A program made the translations under genes and the position numbers. DNA of 28,329 nt, from contig CAYJVS010000002.1 of the NCBI GenBank assembly GCA_964373635.1, forward strand, positions 1-28,329, written 5' to 3'. The stretch is from an uncultured Gammaproteobacteria bacterium. GTDB lineage: Bacteria; Patescibacteriota; Patescibacteriia; Buchananbacterales; GWA2-38-13. Of the stretch, positions 6,258-12,078 are shown in pieces. Position 1 is the first letter of the stretch; each line of letters begins with the position of its first letter. Under the pieces are notes generated by a model. That model did not search any database. It saw only the letters and a list, made by a program, of their open reading frames with translations, and was not told where the DNA came from.

Positions 6258-7313
6258 ATGTTGCGTCGGTGGTTCAAAAAAACGGCTCGCGACATTGGGA
6301 TTGATTTGGGCACCTCCAACACGCTCCTGTTCATCCAGGACCGGGGGGTGGTAATTAACGAGGCGTCGGTGGTGGCGCTCAACACCCGCACCGGTCAGAT
6401 TTTGGCCGTGGGCCGTGAGGCGCTCAAGATGCAAGGGAAAACCCCGCCGCACCTGCAGGTCGTCAATCCGCTGGTGGATGGCGTGATTTCGGACTTTGAG
6501 GTGGCCGAAAAGATGCTGCGGTACTTTTTTGACCGCGTCTACCGCGAACAGCGGATCCTCGCGCCGCGGCCGCGCGTGGTGATCGGGATCCCGCTGGACG
6601 TCACCGAGGTGGAAAAGAAAGCCGTTGAAGATGCGGTCATCTCGGCGGGGGCGCGCGAGGTGCATTTGGTGCCGACCGTCTTGGCGGCGGCGGTCGGCGC
6701 GCGCTTGCCGATCCAAGACGCCTCGGGCAACCTGTTGGTGGATTGCGGCGGCGGCGTGACGCAAGTGGCGGTGATTTCGCTCTCCGGCGTGGTCGCCGCT
6801 AAAAATATGCGAGTCGCCGGGACCGAAGTTGACACCGATATCGTCAACTACGCCCGGCAGGAATTCAACTTGATGGTGGGGGAGCGCGCGGCCGAAGAGG
6901 TCAAACTCTACTTCAGCCGCGTCAAGGAGGGCACCCCCGCCCCGAGCGTGAAGATGCGCGGCCGCGATTTGCTCACCGGGTTGCCGCGCGAGGTCACCGT
7001 CACCGGCGAGCAGGCGGCGGTGGCGGTCAAGCGCGCGTTGAAAAGTTTGGTCGAGGGGATTAAGTCCACCCTTGAGGTGACGCCGCCGGAATTGGTCGCC
7101 GACATTTACCTCCGGGGGATTACGCTGGTGGGCGGCGGGGCGGCGTTAGTCGGGCTGCGGGCGGCCATTGCCGAGGCCACCAAGATGAACGTGGTGATCG
7201 TTGATGATCCGATGACCTGCGCGGTGCGGGGCATGGGGATGCTCTTGGAAGACGCCGCGTTGCTCCAAGAAGTCTCGGTGCCGTCCTCGCAGCAGGAAGA
7301 ACCAACGCGGTAA
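6258..7313 (+). CDS. mreB: Rod shape-determining protein MreB
   Basis: DIGIDLGTSN, PLVDGVISDF, VDCGGGVT, GITLVGGGA. Confidence 0.96.
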   Translation: MLRRWFKKTARDIGIDLGTSNTLLFIQDRGVVINEASVVALNTRTGQILAVGREALKMQGKTPPHLQVVNPLVDGVISDFEVAEKMLRYFFDRVYREQRILAPRPRVVIGIPLDVTEVEKKAVEDAVISAGAREVHLVPTVLAAAVGARLPIQDASGNLLVDCGGGVTQVAVISLSGVVAAKNMRVAGTEVDTDIVNYARQEFNLMVGERAAEEVKLYFSRVKEGTPAPSVKMRGRDLLTGLPREVTVTGEQAAVAVKRALKSLVEGIKSTLEVTPPELVADIYLRGITLVGGGAALVGLRAAIAEATKMNVVIVDDPMTCAVRGMGMLLEDAALLQEVSVPSSQQEEPTR

Positions 7314-7354
7314 GAATCCTCAAGGGTTTACGGTTGAGGTTTTTTCCCACGGCT

Positions 7355-8167
7355 ATGCCTCGGCGGCTCTCCCCATGGTGGCGCAATCCCATCAGTCTGA
7401 CGCTGGGCGCGATCGCGGTTACCGTCACGCTGCATCAGATCGGGTGGCTCGCGGGGTTGGAGGGCGGGGTGGCGCGAATCTTGGCGCCGGCGCAGTTTTG
7501 GACCCACCGGGCGGCCGCGGGAATTTGGCAGCAGCTTCGGGCGTGGCGGCCCACCCCCGGGGTACGGGAAGAAAATCGTCAGCTACAGGCGGAGGCGGTG
7601 CAACTCAGGGTGGCCAATCAACGGCTCCGCCAGCAGGTCGAAGAGTTGGCGGAAGCGTCCGAACAGCTCGCCTTTGCCCGGCAACGGAAATTTCCGTCGG
7701 TTCCGGCTCGCGTCATCGGCAAAACCTTGGGATCGGAGGCCCAAGCGCTGACCATCGATCAGGGGGCGCGGGCGGGCATCCGGGCCGGCCTTCCCGTCAT
7801 TGCCCGCGATGGCGTGTTGATCGGACGCGTCGTTGACGTCGGCTTGGAAACGGCCAAGGTGATGTTGCTCACCGACGGCCGGAGCGTCACGCCCGCGACG
7901 CTCCAGACCAATTTGGCCGCGGGCGGCGTGATCAGCGGCGAATTTGGGGTGAGTCTTAAAATGGATTTGATCCCGAAGGATCAAGCGCTCGCCGTTGGCG
8001 CGGTGGTGATGACCTCGGGATTGGAGCCGGCGTTCCCGCGGGGGCTGCTGATTGGCACGGTTAGCCGCGTTGACGCCAGCCCTGGGCGGTACTTTCAGGT
8101 GGCGTACCTCAAGCCTCTGGTGAGCTATCAGACCGCGCAGGTGGTCTCGGTCCTCTTGACGCGGTAA
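7355..8167 (+). CDS. mreC: Rod shape-determining protein MreC
   Basis: N-terminal TM helix, coiled coil, ARVIGK...LTIDQGARAGI and FPRGLLIGTV. Lies directly after mreB. Confidence 0.92.
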   Translation: MPRRLSPWWRNPISLTLGAIAVTVTLHQIGWLAGLEGGVARILAPAQFWTHRAAAGIWQQLRAWRPTPGVREENRQLQAEAVQLRVANQRLRQQVEELAEASEQLAFARQRKFPSVPARVIGKTLGSEAQALTIDQGARAGIRAGLPVIARDGVLIGRVVDVGLETAKVMLLTDGRSVTPATLQTNLAAGGVISGEFGVSLKMDLIPKDQALAVGAVVMTSGLEPAFPRGLLIGTVSRVDASPGRYFQVAYLKPLVSYQTAQVVSVLLTR

Positions 8168-8173
8168 CGGGAT

Positions 8174-8722
8174 ATGACCGTTGGTCGCTGGTGGGGAGAG
8201 GTGACTGCGCCGGCCGTAACCGTGACCGGGTTGGTCGTTTTACAGTTGACGGTTTTTTCGGACGCGCCCCCGCCGTTTGGGCAACTTGAGGTGCTGGTCA
8301 TTTGGGTCATGTACCGAACCTTGCGCCGTGGCGTAGCGCCGGCCTTGCCCTGGGCCGCCTTTGGGGGGTTGCTCTTGGATGGGTTCGCGCCGCGGGGCTT
8401 TGGCGTTTCCGCCTGGAGTTTGGTGGCCACGGCCCTGACGCTGCACCTTCTCGGCACCGCGCTGTTGACGAATCGCACCTTGGTGTCGTTGGTCACCTTG
8501 GGCATCGCGGGGAGCGGCGTCGCGGAGATGACTCGATTCGCCAGTCAGTGGATCTATGTGCAGCTGGGATGGAGTCCCTGGACGGTGCCTGTGCCCGCGG
8601 CGTCGCGGCTGGTGACCCGCATCCTTTTTCACGTCGGAGTTTTCGTTGTCGTGTTTTGGGTCCGGCGTCAGATGAGCCGGCGGTCGCGGCAGCTTCCCCA
8701 TTTGACCATGGCCGCGGGCTGA
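8174..8722 (+). CDS. mreD: Rod shape-determining protein MreD-like membrane protein
   Basis: Multi-pass hydrophobic protein with a GGLLLD motif, located between mreC and mrdA. Confidence 0.7.
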   Translation: MTVGRWWGEVTAPAVTVTGLVVLQLTVFSDAPPPFGQLEVLVIWVMYRTLRRGVAPALPWAAFGGLLLDGFAPRGFGVSAWSLVATALTLHLLGTALLTNRTLVSLVTLGIAGSGVAEMTRFASQWIYVQLGWSPWTVPVPAASRLVTRILFHVGVFVVVFWVRRQMSRRSRQLPHLTMAAG

Positions 8723-8753
8723 AGCCTCGAGCGAAGTTTTTCTCCGGGGGTAC

Positions 8754-9148
8754 GCCCCGTTAGACAACTTGGCCTGCACCAAATCCTGGTAACAACCATT
8801 GCTCGTTGCTCAACCGTGGGTTGGCGTTAGCGTAGTTGTTGGTCTTCTCGTATTGTTTTCATTAAAATGAGCAAAGTAGTCTAGTTCCTGTTGCAATAGT
8901 GGTAACCACCCCTACCCCCTCCTTGTAAAGGAGGGGAAATCGCCCATAATTTCCTCCTCCTTACGAAGCGTTCTCCCCCTTGCGAAGGGTTCTCCTCCTG
9001 ACGAAGCGTTCACCCCCTTCGAACGGTTCTCCTCCTTACGAAGGAGGAGTCAGAGGAGGTTGAGTGCGAAGCACTCAAGGGGGAGTTAGAGGGGGTAGAT
9101 ACCCGGTATCCTGGAAGTTATATTTCAACACCCACTAGCTAACGGGGT
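8754..9148. mobile_element. Non-coding inverted-repeat (MITE-like) element, 395 bp, ending at the mrdA start codon
   Basis: Ends GCCCCGTTAG / CTAACGGGGT form a 9/10 inverted repeat. The left 17 nt match the 15608 element at 14/17. Confidence 0.55.
8905..9098. repeat. Nested REP-like cluster with five tandem 18-19 bp units
   Basis: Units at 8952, 8971, 8990, 9009 and 9027, consensus TTCTCC(T/C)CCTT(A/G)CGAAG(C/G)G. Complementary arms at 9041-9049 and 9077-9085. Confidence 0.8.
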
Positions 9149-11104
9149 ATGCGCCTGCGCCGTTCGTACGATCCGTTTGCCGTGCCGTCGCTGGCAACCA
9201 GCGCCGGCGGCGGTGGCGTGATCATTCGGACTTCCCTTGAGGTCGCGTCCGTGCCGTTGCCGGGTGAAACACGCCAGTATCTCGGCCGTTTGGTTGCCCC
9301 GGTCCACTTGCGCTGGTGGTTTGGCGTGATGACCGTCGGCCTGATTATTTTGGCGCTTCGGGCCGGCATGCTGCAGCTGGCCGGCGGCGATTACTACCGC
9401 GGGTTGGCGGAAGGCAATCGCCTGCGCCTCCACGAATTGCCGGCGCAACGCGGCTTGTTGTTTGATCGCTTTGGCGCGCCGTTGGTCCGGAACGACCCGC
9501 GGTTGCAACTCGAGGTCATCCCCCTGGACCTCCCGCCGCCCGGGGCGCGGCTGACGGCCTTGATTGAAGAAGTGGCAGGATTGATCGGCCGGCCGCCGGC
9601 GGAGGTCGGGCGGCAGGTGCGGGCGATGCCGCGGGATTCGTATCAACCGGTCGTGGTGGCCGAGGATTTGACGCACGATCAGGCGATTCGGCTGACGGTT
9701 ATCGCCAGCCGTTTTCCCAGTGTGCGCCTCGGCCAGTCGAGTGTCCGCGCGTATCTTCACGGTGAGGCAACGAGTCTGTCTCACGTGCTGGGGTACTTGG
9801 GGAAAATTTCCCCCGCGGAAGCCGAACGGACGCGGGAATCGGGCTACGCCCCAAACGACCGCATGGGCAAGTCGGGGCTGGAGCTGTCCCTCGAAGAGGC
9901 GCTCCGCGGCATCAACGGGCGCGAGCAAGTTGAAGTTGACGCGATCGGCCGCCGCCAAGAATTGATCGCGCAAACTTCACCCGTCAGCGGCGCCGCCGTC
10001 ACGCTCACGGTTGATGTGGCGGCGCAGCGGGCGCTGGAGGCCGCGCTCCAGTCGGCGATTGCCGCCGCGGGCGCCCCGGGGGGAGCGGCCGTCGCGTTGG
10101 ATCCGCGGACCGGCGAGGTGCTCGCCCTGGTTTCGCTGCCAACCTTTGACAATAACCAATTTTCCGCCGGGATGCGTCCCGAAGATTTTTCGCGGATGAC
10201 GAACGATCCGGGTTTGCCCCTGTTCAACCGCGCCATCCAGGGGACCTACCCGTCAGGATCGGTGATTAAACCCGTGGTCGCGGCGGCGGCGTTAGCGGAG
10301 GGCATTATCACCGAGCGCACCACGATCATGAGTACGGGCGGTTTGCGGTTTGAACCGTGGTTTTTTCCCGACTGGAAGGCCGGCGGTCACGGCCCCACCA
10401 ATTTGTCCCTGGCGTTGGCCGAATCGGTCAATACCTATTTCTACCACGTCGGGGGCGGATATCGGAGCTTCGCGGGCTTAGGCGTGGAGCGGTTGACCGC
10501 GGCCTTTCGGCGGGTGGGCTTGGGTCTTCCGACCAACATCGGGCTGGCGGGTGAAGCCGCGGGTTTAGTGCCAAGTCCAGCCTGGAAATTGCAAACTACC
10601 GGACAAGCCTGGTATATCGGCGATACGTATCATTTGGCAATCGGTCAAGGCGATCTCCTGGTCACGCCGGTGCAGGTGGCCAATTATACCGCGATGATCG
10701 CCAATGGCGGCACGTGGTTTCAGCCCCATCTCGTGCGCGAGATCCGTCCGGCGGGTTCAACGGTGGGCAATCGCGCGGCCCCGCGGGTAGTGCGCGCTGG
10801 AGTGTTTTCTCCCGAACATCTGGCGGCGGTGCGGCGCGGCCTGCGCCGGGCGGTCCAGACGGGCAGTGCCCGCGCGCTGGCGGGCCTCTCCCTCGCGGCG
10901 GCGGGCAAAACCGGGACCGCGCAATGGTCAACGGTGAAACCCCCGCACGCCTGGTTCACGGGCTACGCGCCGGCGGACAACCCGCGCGTTGTCCTCACGG
11001 TCGTGGTGGAAGAAGGCGGAGAGGGGAGCGTGAGCGCGGTCCCGGTGGCGGCGCGGTTTTTCCAATGGTGGGCAGAGCACCGCGTGTCCTCAAGCGACTC
11101 GTGA
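9149..11104 (+). CDS. mrdA: Penicillin-binding protein 2 (class B transpeptidase)
   Basis: RGLLFDRFG dimerisation domain, SxxK (GSVIKP), SxN (ESVN) and KTG (GKTGTA). Follows mreBCD. Confidence 0.93.
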   Translation: MRLRRSYDPFAVPSLATSAGGGGVIIRTSLEVASVPLPGETRQYLGRLVAPVHLRWWFGVMTVGLIILALRAGMLQLAGGDYYRGLAEGNRLRLHELPAQRGLLFDRFGAPLVRNDPRLQLEVIPLDLPPPGARLTALIEEVAGLIGRPPAEVGRQVRAMPRDSYQPVVVAEDLTHDQAIRLTVIASRFPSVRLGQSSVRAYLHGEATSLSHVLGYLGKISPAEAERTRESGYAPNDRMGKSGLELSLEEALRGINGREQVEVDAIGRRQELIAQTSPVSGAAVTLTVDVAAQRALEAALQSAIAAAGAPGGAAVALDPRTGEVLALVSLPTFDNNQFSAGMRPEDFSRMTNDPGLPLFNRAIQGTYPSGSVIKPVVAAAALAEGIITERTTIMSTGGLRFEPWFFPDWKAGGHGPTNLSLALAESVNTYFYHVGGGYRSFAGLGVERLTAAFRRVGLGLPTNIGLAGEAAGLVPSPAWKLQTTGQAWYIGDTYHLAIGQGDLLVTPVQVANYTAMIANGGTWFQPHLVREIRPAGSTVGNRAAPRVVRAGVFSPEHLAAVRRGLRRAVQTGSARALAGLSLAAAGKTGTAQWSTVKPPHAWFTGYAPADNPRVVLTVVVEEGGEGSVSAVPVAARFFQWWAEHRVSSSDS

Positions 11105-12034: not shown

Positions 12035-12078
12035 AACTTTTCGGGGTATTGCACGATCGTGCAATACCCCGAAAAGTT
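12035..12078. repeat. Perfect 44-bp spacerless palindrome
   Basis: AACTTTTCGGGGTATTGCACGA|TCGTGCAATACCCCGAAAAGTT. Confidence 0.95.

What the first reader, a model, noticed from the sequence alone, without database searches (positions are those of the whole stretch)
8754..9148. 395-bp inverted-repeat element ending exactly at the mrdA start codon
Seen: GGT-AC|GCCCCGTTAG...CTAACGGGGT|ATG-CG. The left end GCCCCGTTAGACAACTT matches the left end of the 15608 element (GCCTCGTGGGACAACTT) at 14/17. Removing it leaves only 29 nt between the mreD stop and a start position, which fits the normally tight mreBCD-mrdA operon. Inference: an older member of the same family inserted into the ATG, the left AT copy has drifted to AC, and the interior has collected nested REP repeats.
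Basis: partly seen in the sequence, partly recalled or inferred. Interest (0 to 1): 0.7.

Follow-up and report, generated by a model that had tools for sequence, protein, structure and literature searches.

The report
Nested mini-transposons on mrdA start codon
The 395-bp insert between mreD and mrdA is a decayed copy of a tiny hairpin-ended mobile element family of ultra-small (Patescibacteria) bacteria that lands on gene start codons, later split by a second, unrelated mini-transposon.

Summary
The element spans 8755-9147. It is flanked by TACG (8751-8754) and TATG (9148-9151), and that ATG is the conserved mrdA/PBP2 start.

The insert has two layers:
- **Outer element:** about 139 nt (8755-8883 plus 9138-9147). 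It belongs to a genome-wide family with terminal inverted repeats (TIRs) CCCCGTnnGACAACTT and a 4-bp YATG direct repeat. In 15 of 16 paired copies the right-hand ATG opens an 87-1167 aa ORF.
- **Nested element:** a 252-nt TA-flanked MITE (8884-9135) sits inside the outer element's right TIR. It carries the "REP-like" 19-nt tandem hairpins.

About 100 relatives have the upstream gene and mrdA overlapping or less than 100 nt apart (median 6 nt). This genome has 426 nt. An independent Logan assembly shows the same occupied left junction.

The same TIR/TATG elements occur in other Patescibacteria. Three full-length (~300 bp) relatives encode only a 94-100 aa GIY-YIG nuclease that starts at the captured host ATG. 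No such parent was found in this genome.

This scan has noted the family before on other DNA. I found no published description. Mobilisation by the nuclease is inferred, not shown.

The parts
8174..8722 (+). mreD-like gene (182 aa), last gene before the insert; stop TGA at 8720-8722
   Evidence: ORF. No Pfam hit. It is 21-32% identical to the gene at the same position between mreC and PBP2 in relatives.
8723..8750 (+). Original mreD-mrdA spacer (28 nt). 8734-8749 (AAGTTTTTCTCCGGGG) itself resembles a family right end.
   Evidence: 3 mismatches to the TIR pattern on the minus strand. The same-genus genome G001 has a 30-nt spacer ending GGAAGTTTCT-ATG.
8751..8754 (+). Left copy of the 4-bp direct repeat, decayed to TACG (old start codon now ACG)
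   Evidence: Eleven of 16 paired copies carry TATG on both sides.
8755..8883 (+). Outer hairpin element, left part. Left TIR is 8755-8770 (CCCCGTTAGACAACTT). The inner half of the right TIR is 8874-8883 (AAGTAGTCTA, one mismatch).
   Evidence: family. (end-to-end alignment with the copies on C80, C50, C3, C1, C4 and C16).
8882..8883 (+). TA, left copy of the target duplication of the nested element
   Evidence: other copies of the nested family are flanked by TA on both sides.
8884..9135 (+). Nested TA-flanked MITE ('family 2', 252 nt). Left TIR starts GTTCCTGTTG at 8884. Right TIR is TATTTCAACACCCAC at 9121-9135.
   Evidence: The canonical form is 121 nt, with copies 98-100% identical on C155, C24, C5 and C34. 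The first 74 nt here are 92% identical to it.
8954..9043 (+). 19/38-nt tandem array of half-hairpins (CTCCTCCTTACGAAGCGTT) inside the nested MITE
   Evidence: Tandem Repeats Finder. The same modules occur in the expanded family-2 copy on C38.
9096..9124 (+). Promoter-like match TAGATA-17-TATATT, ending 24 nt upstream of the mrdA ATG, inside the nested MITE
   Evidence: 2 sites found against 0.1 expected in shuffles. This is a consensus match only; function is untested.
9136..9137 (+). TA, right copy of the nested element's target duplication
9138..9147 (+). Outer element, terminal part of the right TIR (GCTAACGGGG). It has 4 nt more than the consensus GTCTAACGGGG once the nested element is removed.
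9148..9151 (+). Right copy of the direct repeat TATG. ATG 9149-9151 is the mrdA start codon.
9149..11104 (+). mrdA / PBP2 (651 aa; PBP dimerisation and transpeptidase domains)
   Evidence: Pfam PF03717 and PF00905. N-terminus conserved in relatives from residues 1-8.

Best explanation
The insert is mobile-DNA debris in two layers.

**Layer 1.** A non-autonomous, roughly 139-nt hairpin-ended element inserted at the T|ATG of mrdA and duplicated the 4-bp target. It belongs to a Patescibacteria family with TIRs CCCCGTnnGACAACTT. The host gene therefore kept an intact start codon at the element's right end. The old, left copy has since mutated to ACG.

**Layer 2.** A TA-targeting MITE of an unrelated and more recently active family inserted into a TA inside the first element's right TIR. 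It brought a minisatellite of half-hairpins, split the TIR, and probably immobilised the outer copy.

Shown here:
- the anatomy of both layers;
- family membership;
- 4-bp flanking repeats;
- that the insert sits on the true start codon;
- that relatives lack the insert.

Inferred:
- The outer family is moved in trans by the 94-100 aa GIY-YIG nuclease that its full-length relatives encode. I put this at about 50%.
- Its start-codon seat results from a YATG target word (53% of confident starts in this genome are TATG), an orientation-specific insertion mechanism, and selection against other sites.
- mrdA is still expressed by read-through from mreBCD or from a promoter-like site in the nested element. 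The whole insert folds into one closed structure.
For: **Family and anatomy**
- 18 exact TIR matches in the genome, none for the control pattern.
- 16 paired copies of 83-423 nt. Fifteen have a right-flank ATG opening an 87-1167 aa ORF.
- The core aligns end to end with the subfamily: 74% identity to C80, 78% of aligned columns to C50.
- The nested element has TA on both sides and TIRs shared with a 121-nt family whose copies are 98-100% identical.

**It is an insertion**
- In 29 relatives the mreD stop to mrdA ATG distance is -23 to +70 nt in nearly all. Same-genus values are 30 nt, or an ATGA overlap.
- In 71 metagenome loci the median is 6 nt.
- Here it is 426 nt.

**True start**
- MR.R..DPF is conserved at the N-terminus.

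**A 4-bp duplication rather than an element-borne TATG**
- An independent insertion of the same element type at the PBP2 start in metagenome contig L118 is flanked CATG/CATG.
- An element nested in the C16 copy is flanked CCTG/CCTG.

**Directionality**
- Interiors of homologous copies align only in the forward direction when oriented by the downstream gene.

**Wider family and parent**
- 17 of 17 pattern hits in other Patescibacteria MAGs are paired, YATG-flanked elements (16 TATG/TATG, one TATG/CATG).
- Three ~290-305-bp versions encode a GIY-YIG ORF that starts at the left-flank ATG and reads through the TIR as MPRxTT.
- The MITE L131 and the full-length L158 come from the same genome. Their right ends are identical over 24 nt, and their left ends differ at one base over 24 nt.

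**Not a mis-assembly**
- A Logan contig from run ERR4904391 is identical across mreD, the left junction and the start of the nested MITE.

**Fold**
- -163 kcal/mol, z = -5.2, closed by the residual TIR pairs.
Against: - No empty allele, and no intermediate allele (outer element without the nested one), was found. The closest relatives are only 54-58% identical in PBP2, so the insertion is inferred from comparison across genera, not strains.
- No GIY-YIG gene flanked by these TIRs exists in this 90%-complete assembly.
- All family copies here are diverged, 83% identity or less. Nothing shows recent movement in this genome.
- Only 9 nt of the right TIR adjoin the ATG. Four extra nt in that TIR are unexplained.
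- TATG is the commonest start context here. Part of the start-codon association may therefore follow from the target word plus selection. My rough null of 27-45% start sites among tolerated TATG sites rests on crude gene calls.
- Expression of mrdA across the insert is untested.
Confidence: 0.85

Rival explanations
1. The insert has been co-opted. The nested MITE supplies an outward promoter, and/or the large closed RNA structure tunes mrdA expression separately from mreBCD. On this reading it is retained for function rather than merely tolerated. This is compatible with the mobile-element origin.
For: A promoter-like site (TAGATA-17-TATATT) ends 24 nt upstream of the ATG, with 2 sites found against 0.1 expected. 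The fold is strong and closed. The decoy left ATG is inactivated to ACG. The occupied allele is identical in a second assembly.
Against: The promoter match is consensus-only, and it lies in a variant part of the nested element that other copies do not share. No relative has such a spacer. No expression data exist. The genome shows no Shine-Dalgarno signal, so no special rescue of translation initiation is needed.
Confidence: 0.12
2. The two ends match by chance. The spacer would then be only a cluster of REP-like hairpin repeats, possibly RAYT-associated, that accumulated between mreD and mrdA.
For: Only 9 nt of inverted repeat adjoin the ATG. The genome holds a Y1-transposase (RAYT-like) gene on contig C122, with similar hairpins about 800 nt away. 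Hairpin modules of the interior occur at many sites, often at contig ends.
Against: With the nested element removed, the remainder aligns over its whole 139 nt to family copies, including the inner half of the right TIR at 8874-8883. The left 17-mer is identical at three other sites. The hairpin modules lie inside an element with its own TIRs and TA duplication.
Confidence: 0.03
3. Assembly artefact: the contig was joined through repeats, and the real genome has a short mreD-mrdA junction.
For: Both repeat families break the assembly elsewhere, with many copies at contig ends. The copy number of the 19-nt array may be mis-assembled.
Against: Gene order across the insert is the conserved mreC-mreD-mrdA order. 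An independent Logan contig reproduces mreD, the left junction, the outer element and the first 70 nt or so of the nested one without a single difference until its last few bases. Both unique flanks directly abut family ends.
Confidence: 0.03

Closest known systems
Bacterial MITEs co-transcribed as hairpins (Neisseria Correia elements, ERIC, RUP); comparison from my own knowledge of these families
   Same: Small (about 80-400 nt), non-coding and multi-copy, with TIRs that can fold the whole element into a hairpin. They sit in transcribed intergenic DNA of operons and can nest.
   Different: Correia elements duplicate TA and derive from DDE-type logic. This family duplicates 4 bp (YATG). It sits on start codons in one orientation. 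Its only coding relatives carry a GIY-YIG nuclease and no DDE transposase.
Ssn nucleases with NTS/SRM hairpin repeats (Chenal et al. 2025, Nat Commun, PMC11893778)
   Same: A small single-domain GIY-YIG protein whose gene is flanked on both sides by copies of a hairpin-forming repeat that is also dispersed through the genome (paper sections 7 and 10).
   Different: Ssn is described as a site-specific ssDNA nuclease that modulates transformation, not as a transposase. Its repeats are not reported to sit on start codons with target duplications. The nuclease tested here matches best UPF0213 BH0048 (PDB 1ZG2, E = 1e-5). Membership of cd10448 could not be tested.
IS630/Tc1-mariner-derived (Stowaway-like) MITEs, for the nested element
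   Same: TA on both sides, 15-16-nt TIRs, canonical length about 121 nt, near-identical copies.
   Different: No IS630-type DDE_3 transposase was found in this assembly. The interior of this copy is expanded by a 19-nt minisatellite.
MIRUs of mycobacteria (intergenic repeats in operons whose small ORFs overlap the flanking stop and start codons); from my own knowledge
   Same: Repeats that live exactly at gene junctions of polycistronic operons and preserve the downstream start.
   Different: MIRUs are tandem 40-100-bp units without TIRs or a target duplication, and they rely on translational coupling. Here the left mini-ORF (MPR-stop in TTAG-type copies) does not end at the second ATG.

Membership tests
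MITE (generic) | Small size and no coding capacity | tested here: met
   The outer core is 139 nt and the nested element 252 nt. The only ORFs are 33 aa or shorter, low-complexity, with no Rfam or Pfam signal.
MITE (generic) | Terminal inverted repeats and a flanking target-site duplication | tested here: met
   Outer element: a 16-nt TIR (the right one split, one mismatch plus a 4-nt indel), with flanks TACG/TATG. Nested element: 15-nt TIR with flanks TA/TA.
MITE (generic) | Multiple dispersed copies | tested here: met
   16 paired copies of the outer family. About 23 family-2 ends.
Start-codon hairpin elements of Patescibacteria with GIY-YIG parents (noted by this scan; no publication found) | TIR CCCCGTnnGACAAC..., 4-bp YATG direct repeat, and a right ATG that is the host start codon | tested here: met
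   The left repeat carries one substitution.
Start-codon hairpin elements of Patescibacteria with GIY-YIG parents (noted by this scan; no publication found) | Fixed orientation relative to the downstream gene | tested here: met
   The interior aligns with 6 other subfamily copies only in the forward direction.
Start-codon hairpin elements of Patescibacteria with GIY-YIG parents (noted by this scan; no publication found) | A full-length partner with the same ends that encodes only a GIY-YIG nuclease | tested here: inconclusive
   Found in other genomes (L157, L158, L168). Not found in this 90%-complete genome: 5 GIY-YIG hits, none with these TIRs.
Ssn / SRM system | Nuclease belongs to the cd10448 clade | not testable with these tools
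   Pfam GIY-YIG PF01541 matches. The best solved relative is UPF0213 (1ZG2). No CDD search was available.
Ssn / SRM system | Site-specific ssDNA cleavage next to the hairpin repeat | not testable with these tools
   This needs biochemistry.
IS630/Tc1-mariner-derived MITE (nested element) | TA target duplication and TIRs | tested here: met
IS630/Tc1-mariner-derived MITE (nested element) | A cognate DDE_3 transposase with matching ends | tested here: not met
   No PF13358 hit in the assembly, which is 90% complete and fragmented.
REP/REPIN-RAYT | No target duplication; REP palindromes associated with a RAYT gene | tested here: not met
   Both elements have flanking duplications and TIRs that span the whole element. 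A Y1_Tnp gene exists on C122, but it is not linked to these ends.
Correia (CREE) | TA duplication with 26-bp Correia TIRs | tested here: not met
   The outer element has a 4-bp YATG repeat and unrelated TIRs.

The most novel reading that the evidence does not exclude
The outer element would represent a new class of transposon. Its only protein would be a ~95-aa GIY-YIG nuclease translated from the captured host start codon. It would insert in one orientation at YATG with a 4-nt staggered cut, so it colonises start codons of even essential operons (here mreBCD-mrdA; independently the same gene in another lineage, and infB) without killing the gene. In this copy, the nested insert would now contribute a promoter or RNA structure to mrdA control.
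Probability: 0.35. Interest if true: 0.85.

Novelty: new variant of a known kind. Interest (0 to 1): 0.5.

Why it matters
Patescibacteria have tiny, gene-dense genomes with almost no spacer DNA. This locus shows how mobile DNA still finds room. The element duplicates the start codon it lands on, so a normally fused cell-wall operon junction (median 6 nt) can tolerate a 426-nt structured insert. That insert then becomes a landing pad for a second transposon.

If the small GIY-YIG protein is the mobilising enzyme, the family would be the smallest self-contained transposon type and a new transposase chemistry. It would also offer a natural system for studying translation initiation without Shine-Dalgarno sequences.

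Practically, such inserts break MAG assemblies and can mislead gene-start annotation.

Tried and rejected
- **Rfam.** No family at gathering threshold in the window. Only chance-level hits appear in 8600-9300.
- **ORFs.** No credible ORF in the spacer.
- **Empty site.** An exact search for the predicted junction (TTTCTCCGGGGGTAYGCGCCTGCGCC) in metagenome contigs gave 0 hits.
- **Close relatives.** A PBP2 search in metagenome contigs found nothing above 54% identity, so no strain-level comparison is possible.
- **Exact protein look-up.** PBP2 is not on record elsewhere. MreD gave one readable contig, which carries the occupied allele.
- **Distribution in the order.** The TIR pattern is absent from the 30 other genomes of the order, so the family was not inherited with the locus.
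- **Autonomous partner in this genome.**
  - The GIY-YIG hits on C20 and C65 have different flanking repeats. The C39 hit is below cut-off.
  - There is no DDE_Tnp_1 and no DDE_3.
  - One Y1_Tnp gene is not linked to these ends.
- **Translational coupling.** I considered coupling through a leader ORF that starts at the left ATG. I rejected it because that codon is ACG here, and in other TTAG-type copies the ORF stops after 3 codons.
- **IS200/IS605-type element.** Rejected because its ends do not form an inverted repeat with each other, and because non-TATG 4-bp duplications (CATG/CATG, CCTG/CCTG) indicate a true target duplication.
- **Literature.** Three full-text searches found no description of start-codon-inserting GIY-YIG or MITE elements in CPR bacteria. 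One further search was rejected for a formatting slip.

Full report
**Setting.** The window is contig C2 of a 1.07-Mb, 162-contig, 60% G+C assembly that is 90% complete. Its relatives are small (0.7-1.4 Mb) genomes, and the matching elements elsewhere lie in Patescibacteria MAGs. Around the finding lie:
- mreB (6258-7313);
- mreC (7334-8167);
- a 182-aa mreD-like gene (8174-8722);
- PBP2/mrdA (9149-11104).

The spacer 8723-9148 is 426 nt. Its G+C is about 50%, against about 65% in the flanks.

**Observation.** The sequence reads ...GGGGG-TACG|CCCCGTTAGACAACTT... on the left and ...CTAACGGGG|TATG-CGCC... on the right.

The 9-bp inverted repeat would not be convincing alone. The pattern CCCCGTNNGACAACTT, however, occurs 18 times in this genome and never as the reversed control. 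The exact 17-mer recurs at three other sites.

**The family in this genome.**
- I paired ends into 16 elements of 83-423 nt.
- Eleven carry TATG on both sides. The others differ by one base on one side.
- Oriented by that repeat, the ATG on the right opens an ORF of 87-1167 aa in 15 of 16 copies.
- The interiors fall into subfamilies. Within a subfamily they align only in the forward direction relative to the downstream gene, so insertion is directional.
- No two copies are more than 83% identical.
- Two further short families share the CCCCGTTAGA core but have other flanks.

**Anatomy of this copy.**
- BLAST against the genome splits the spacer. Positions 8747-8828 match family copies. Positions 8881-9114 match a different, abundant repeat.
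- That second repeat is a MITE in its own right. Its canonical length is 121 nt, its TIRs are GTTCCTGTTGAAAAA.../...TTTTTCAACAGGAAC, it has TA on both sides, and copies on C155, C24, C5 and C34 are 98-100% identical.
- In the window it spans 8884-9135, with TA at 8882-8883 and 9136-9137. Its interior is expanded by a 19/38-nt tandem array at 8954-9043, as in the copy on C38.
- Immediately to its left is AAGTAGTCTA. This is the inner half of the outer element's right TIR, with one mismatch.
- Immediately to its right is GCTAACGGGG.
- With 8884-9137 removed, the remaining 139 nt align end to end with the copies on C80, C50, C3, C1, C4 and C16. Identity over the longer element is 74% to C80, and 78% of aligned columns match C50. 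Four extra bases in the right TIR remain unexplained.
- The 'REP cluster' is therefore the cargo of one nested TA-flanked MITE that split the outer element's right TIR.

**Is it an insertion, and is the ATG the true start?**
- In 29 relatives from the same genus to the same class, the mreD stop and the first ATG of PBP2 overlap or lie at most about 70 nt apart in nearly all. G001 has 30 nt; G002 and G003 have an ATGA overlap.
- In 71 metagenome loci the median distance from the upstream gene is 6 nt.
- The PBP2 N-terminus MR.R..DPF is conserved from the first residues, so ATG 9149 is the start.
- None of the 30 other genomes of the order has the TIR pattern.
- A Logan contig from run ERR4904391 is identical through mreD, the left junction, the outer element and the beginning of the nested MITE, and ends there. 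This argues against mis-assembly and shows the occupied allele in a second data set.
- No empty allele was found.

**The family elsewhere.**
- A scan of one genome per prokaryotic species for TATG plus the TIR gave 17 loci. Most sit in MAGs labelled as Patescibacteria lineages: Minisyncoccia, Paceibacterota, Parcubacteria, Saccharibacteria. A few MAGs are unclassified, and one is labelled Gammaproteobacteria.
- All 17 are paired, YATG-flanked elements: 16 are TATG/TATG of 71-202 nt (one of them ends in ATG), and L132 is TATG/CATG.
- At least 10 sit on long ORF starts, including infB in L134.
- In five of those genomes I searched for GIY-YIG. Three small GIY-YIG ORFs (L157, L158, L168) lie inside elements of about 290-305 bp with these TIRs.
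- Each ORF begins at the left-flank ATG, reads through the TIR as MPRxTT, and ends in or just before the right TIR.
- L158 and the MITE L131 come from the same genome. Their right ends are identical over 24 nt, and their left ends differ at one base over 24 nt.
- The protein matches Pfam GIY-YIG. Its best solved relative is UPF0213 BH0048.
- This reproduces, for this TIR type, what earlier agents of this scan reported on other DNA.

**Target duplication.** Two cases show that the 4 bp are copied from the target rather than carried by the element:
- Metagenome contig L118 has an independent insertion of the same element type at the PBP2 start codon, flanked CATG/CATG.
- The element nested in the C16 copy is flanked CCTG/CCTG.

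**Why start codons?**
- This genome shows no Shine-Dalgarno signal, and 53% of 224 confident starts have T at -1. TATG is therefore the commonest start word.
- With crude gene calls, about 244 TATG sites are gene starts and about 671 are intergenic.
- Even a generous null of 45% start sites among tolerated sites makes 15 of 16 unlikely (about 6e-5, my arithmetic).
- The target word and selection clearly explain part of the pattern. The gene calls are rough.

**Consequences for mrdA (inferred).**
- The left start codon is dead (ACG), so no decoy ORF remains.
- The 411-nt RNA spanning the insert folds to -163 kcal/mol (z = -5.2), with the residual TIR pairs closing the structure. The two flanks would therefore lie together.
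- A promoter-like match ends 24 nt upstream of the ATG, inside the nested element.
- Whether mrdA is expressed by read-through or from this site is untested.

**Comparison with known systems.**
- Both layers meet the generic MITE definition.
- The nested one looks IS630/mariner-derived (TA duplication), but no such transposase is in the assembly.
- The outer one differs from Correia, ERIC and RUP elements in its 4-bp YATG duplication, its fixed orientation on start codons, and its GIY-YIG-only parents.
- The nearest published system is Ssn with its flanking hairpin repeats (PMC11893778). That system is described as an ssDNA nuclease affecting transformation, not as a transposon.
- Three literature searches found no description of such elements.

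**Verdict.** This copy is a decayed, nested and probably immobile member of the family. The family itself is unusual and apparently unpublished, but it has been noted repeatedly by this scan. Its mechanism of movement remains an inference.

Noticed in passing
window 8734-8750: The original spacer just left of the insert (AAGTTTTTCTCCGGGG+G) resembles a family right end (11 of 14 specified bases). Several other copies also have GGGG or GAGG just before their left TATG (C16, C15, C50). This could be a remnant of an older tandem element or a target that mimics the element's own end.
   Followed up: partly
window 9138-9141: Four extra bases (GCTA) remain in the outer element's right TIR once the nested MITE and one TA are removed. 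This could be a small duplication or an excision footprint. It is unexplained.
   Followed up: no
L118:2686-2830 (metagenome contig Ga0155437_114): An independent insertion of the same element type sits exactly on the PBP2/mrdA start codon in a different Patescibacteria lineage. It is flanked CATG/CATG.
   Followed up: partly
G000 contig C16:9028-9330: A family copy carries another family-type element (163 nt) nested near its left end, flanked CCTG/CCTG. This is a non-ATG 4-bp duplication.
   Followed up: partly
G000, whole genome: There is no Shine-Dalgarno enrichment upstream of 224 confident starts, but T at -1 occurs in 53% of them (A 10%, C 30%, G 7%).
   Followed up: partly
G000 contig C122:337-1317 (minus strand) and 2108-2160: A Y1-transposase (RAYT/IS200-like) gene lies about 800 nt from two copies of the hairpin CTCCCCCTTCGGAAGGGGGAG. 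That hairpin resembles the modules inside the nested MITE. This may be a REP/RAYT system.
   Followed up: no
G000 contig C39:8269-8440 (minus strand): A degenerate GIY-YIG-like ORF (17.8 bits, below cut-off) is preceded by CCCCGTTAGAGGCCTT. It may be a decayed coding relative of the hairpin families.
   Followed up: no
G000 contigs C20:2908-3129 and C65:5365-5547: Two intact 78-84 aa GIY-YIG ORFs are flanked by other inverted repeats (for example GTCATTGCGAGCG.../...CGCAATGAC). These represent a different small-nuclease/repeat pairing in the same genome.
   Followed up: no
G000 contigs C4:10037-10134, C9:14034-14130, C24:8190-8287, C64:1669-1765 and others: Two more short palindromic families (about 87-100 nt) share the CCCCGTTAGA core. 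One is flanked CCCG/CGGG. The other has ends CCCCGTTAGACAATGG/AAGGG and often sits at contig ends.
   Followed up: no
window 12035-12078: A perfect 44-bp palindrome whose arms contain TTTTCGGGGTAT, reminiscent of the family's right end.
   Followed up: no
L129, L130, L133, L137 (other Patescibacteria MAGs): Four 71-79-nt copies (TIR CCCCGTATGACAACTT) share the right flank TATGCC(C/T)GAAAT, followed only by 19-23-codon ORFs. They may sit in a conserved non-start context or inside another repeat.
   Followed up: no
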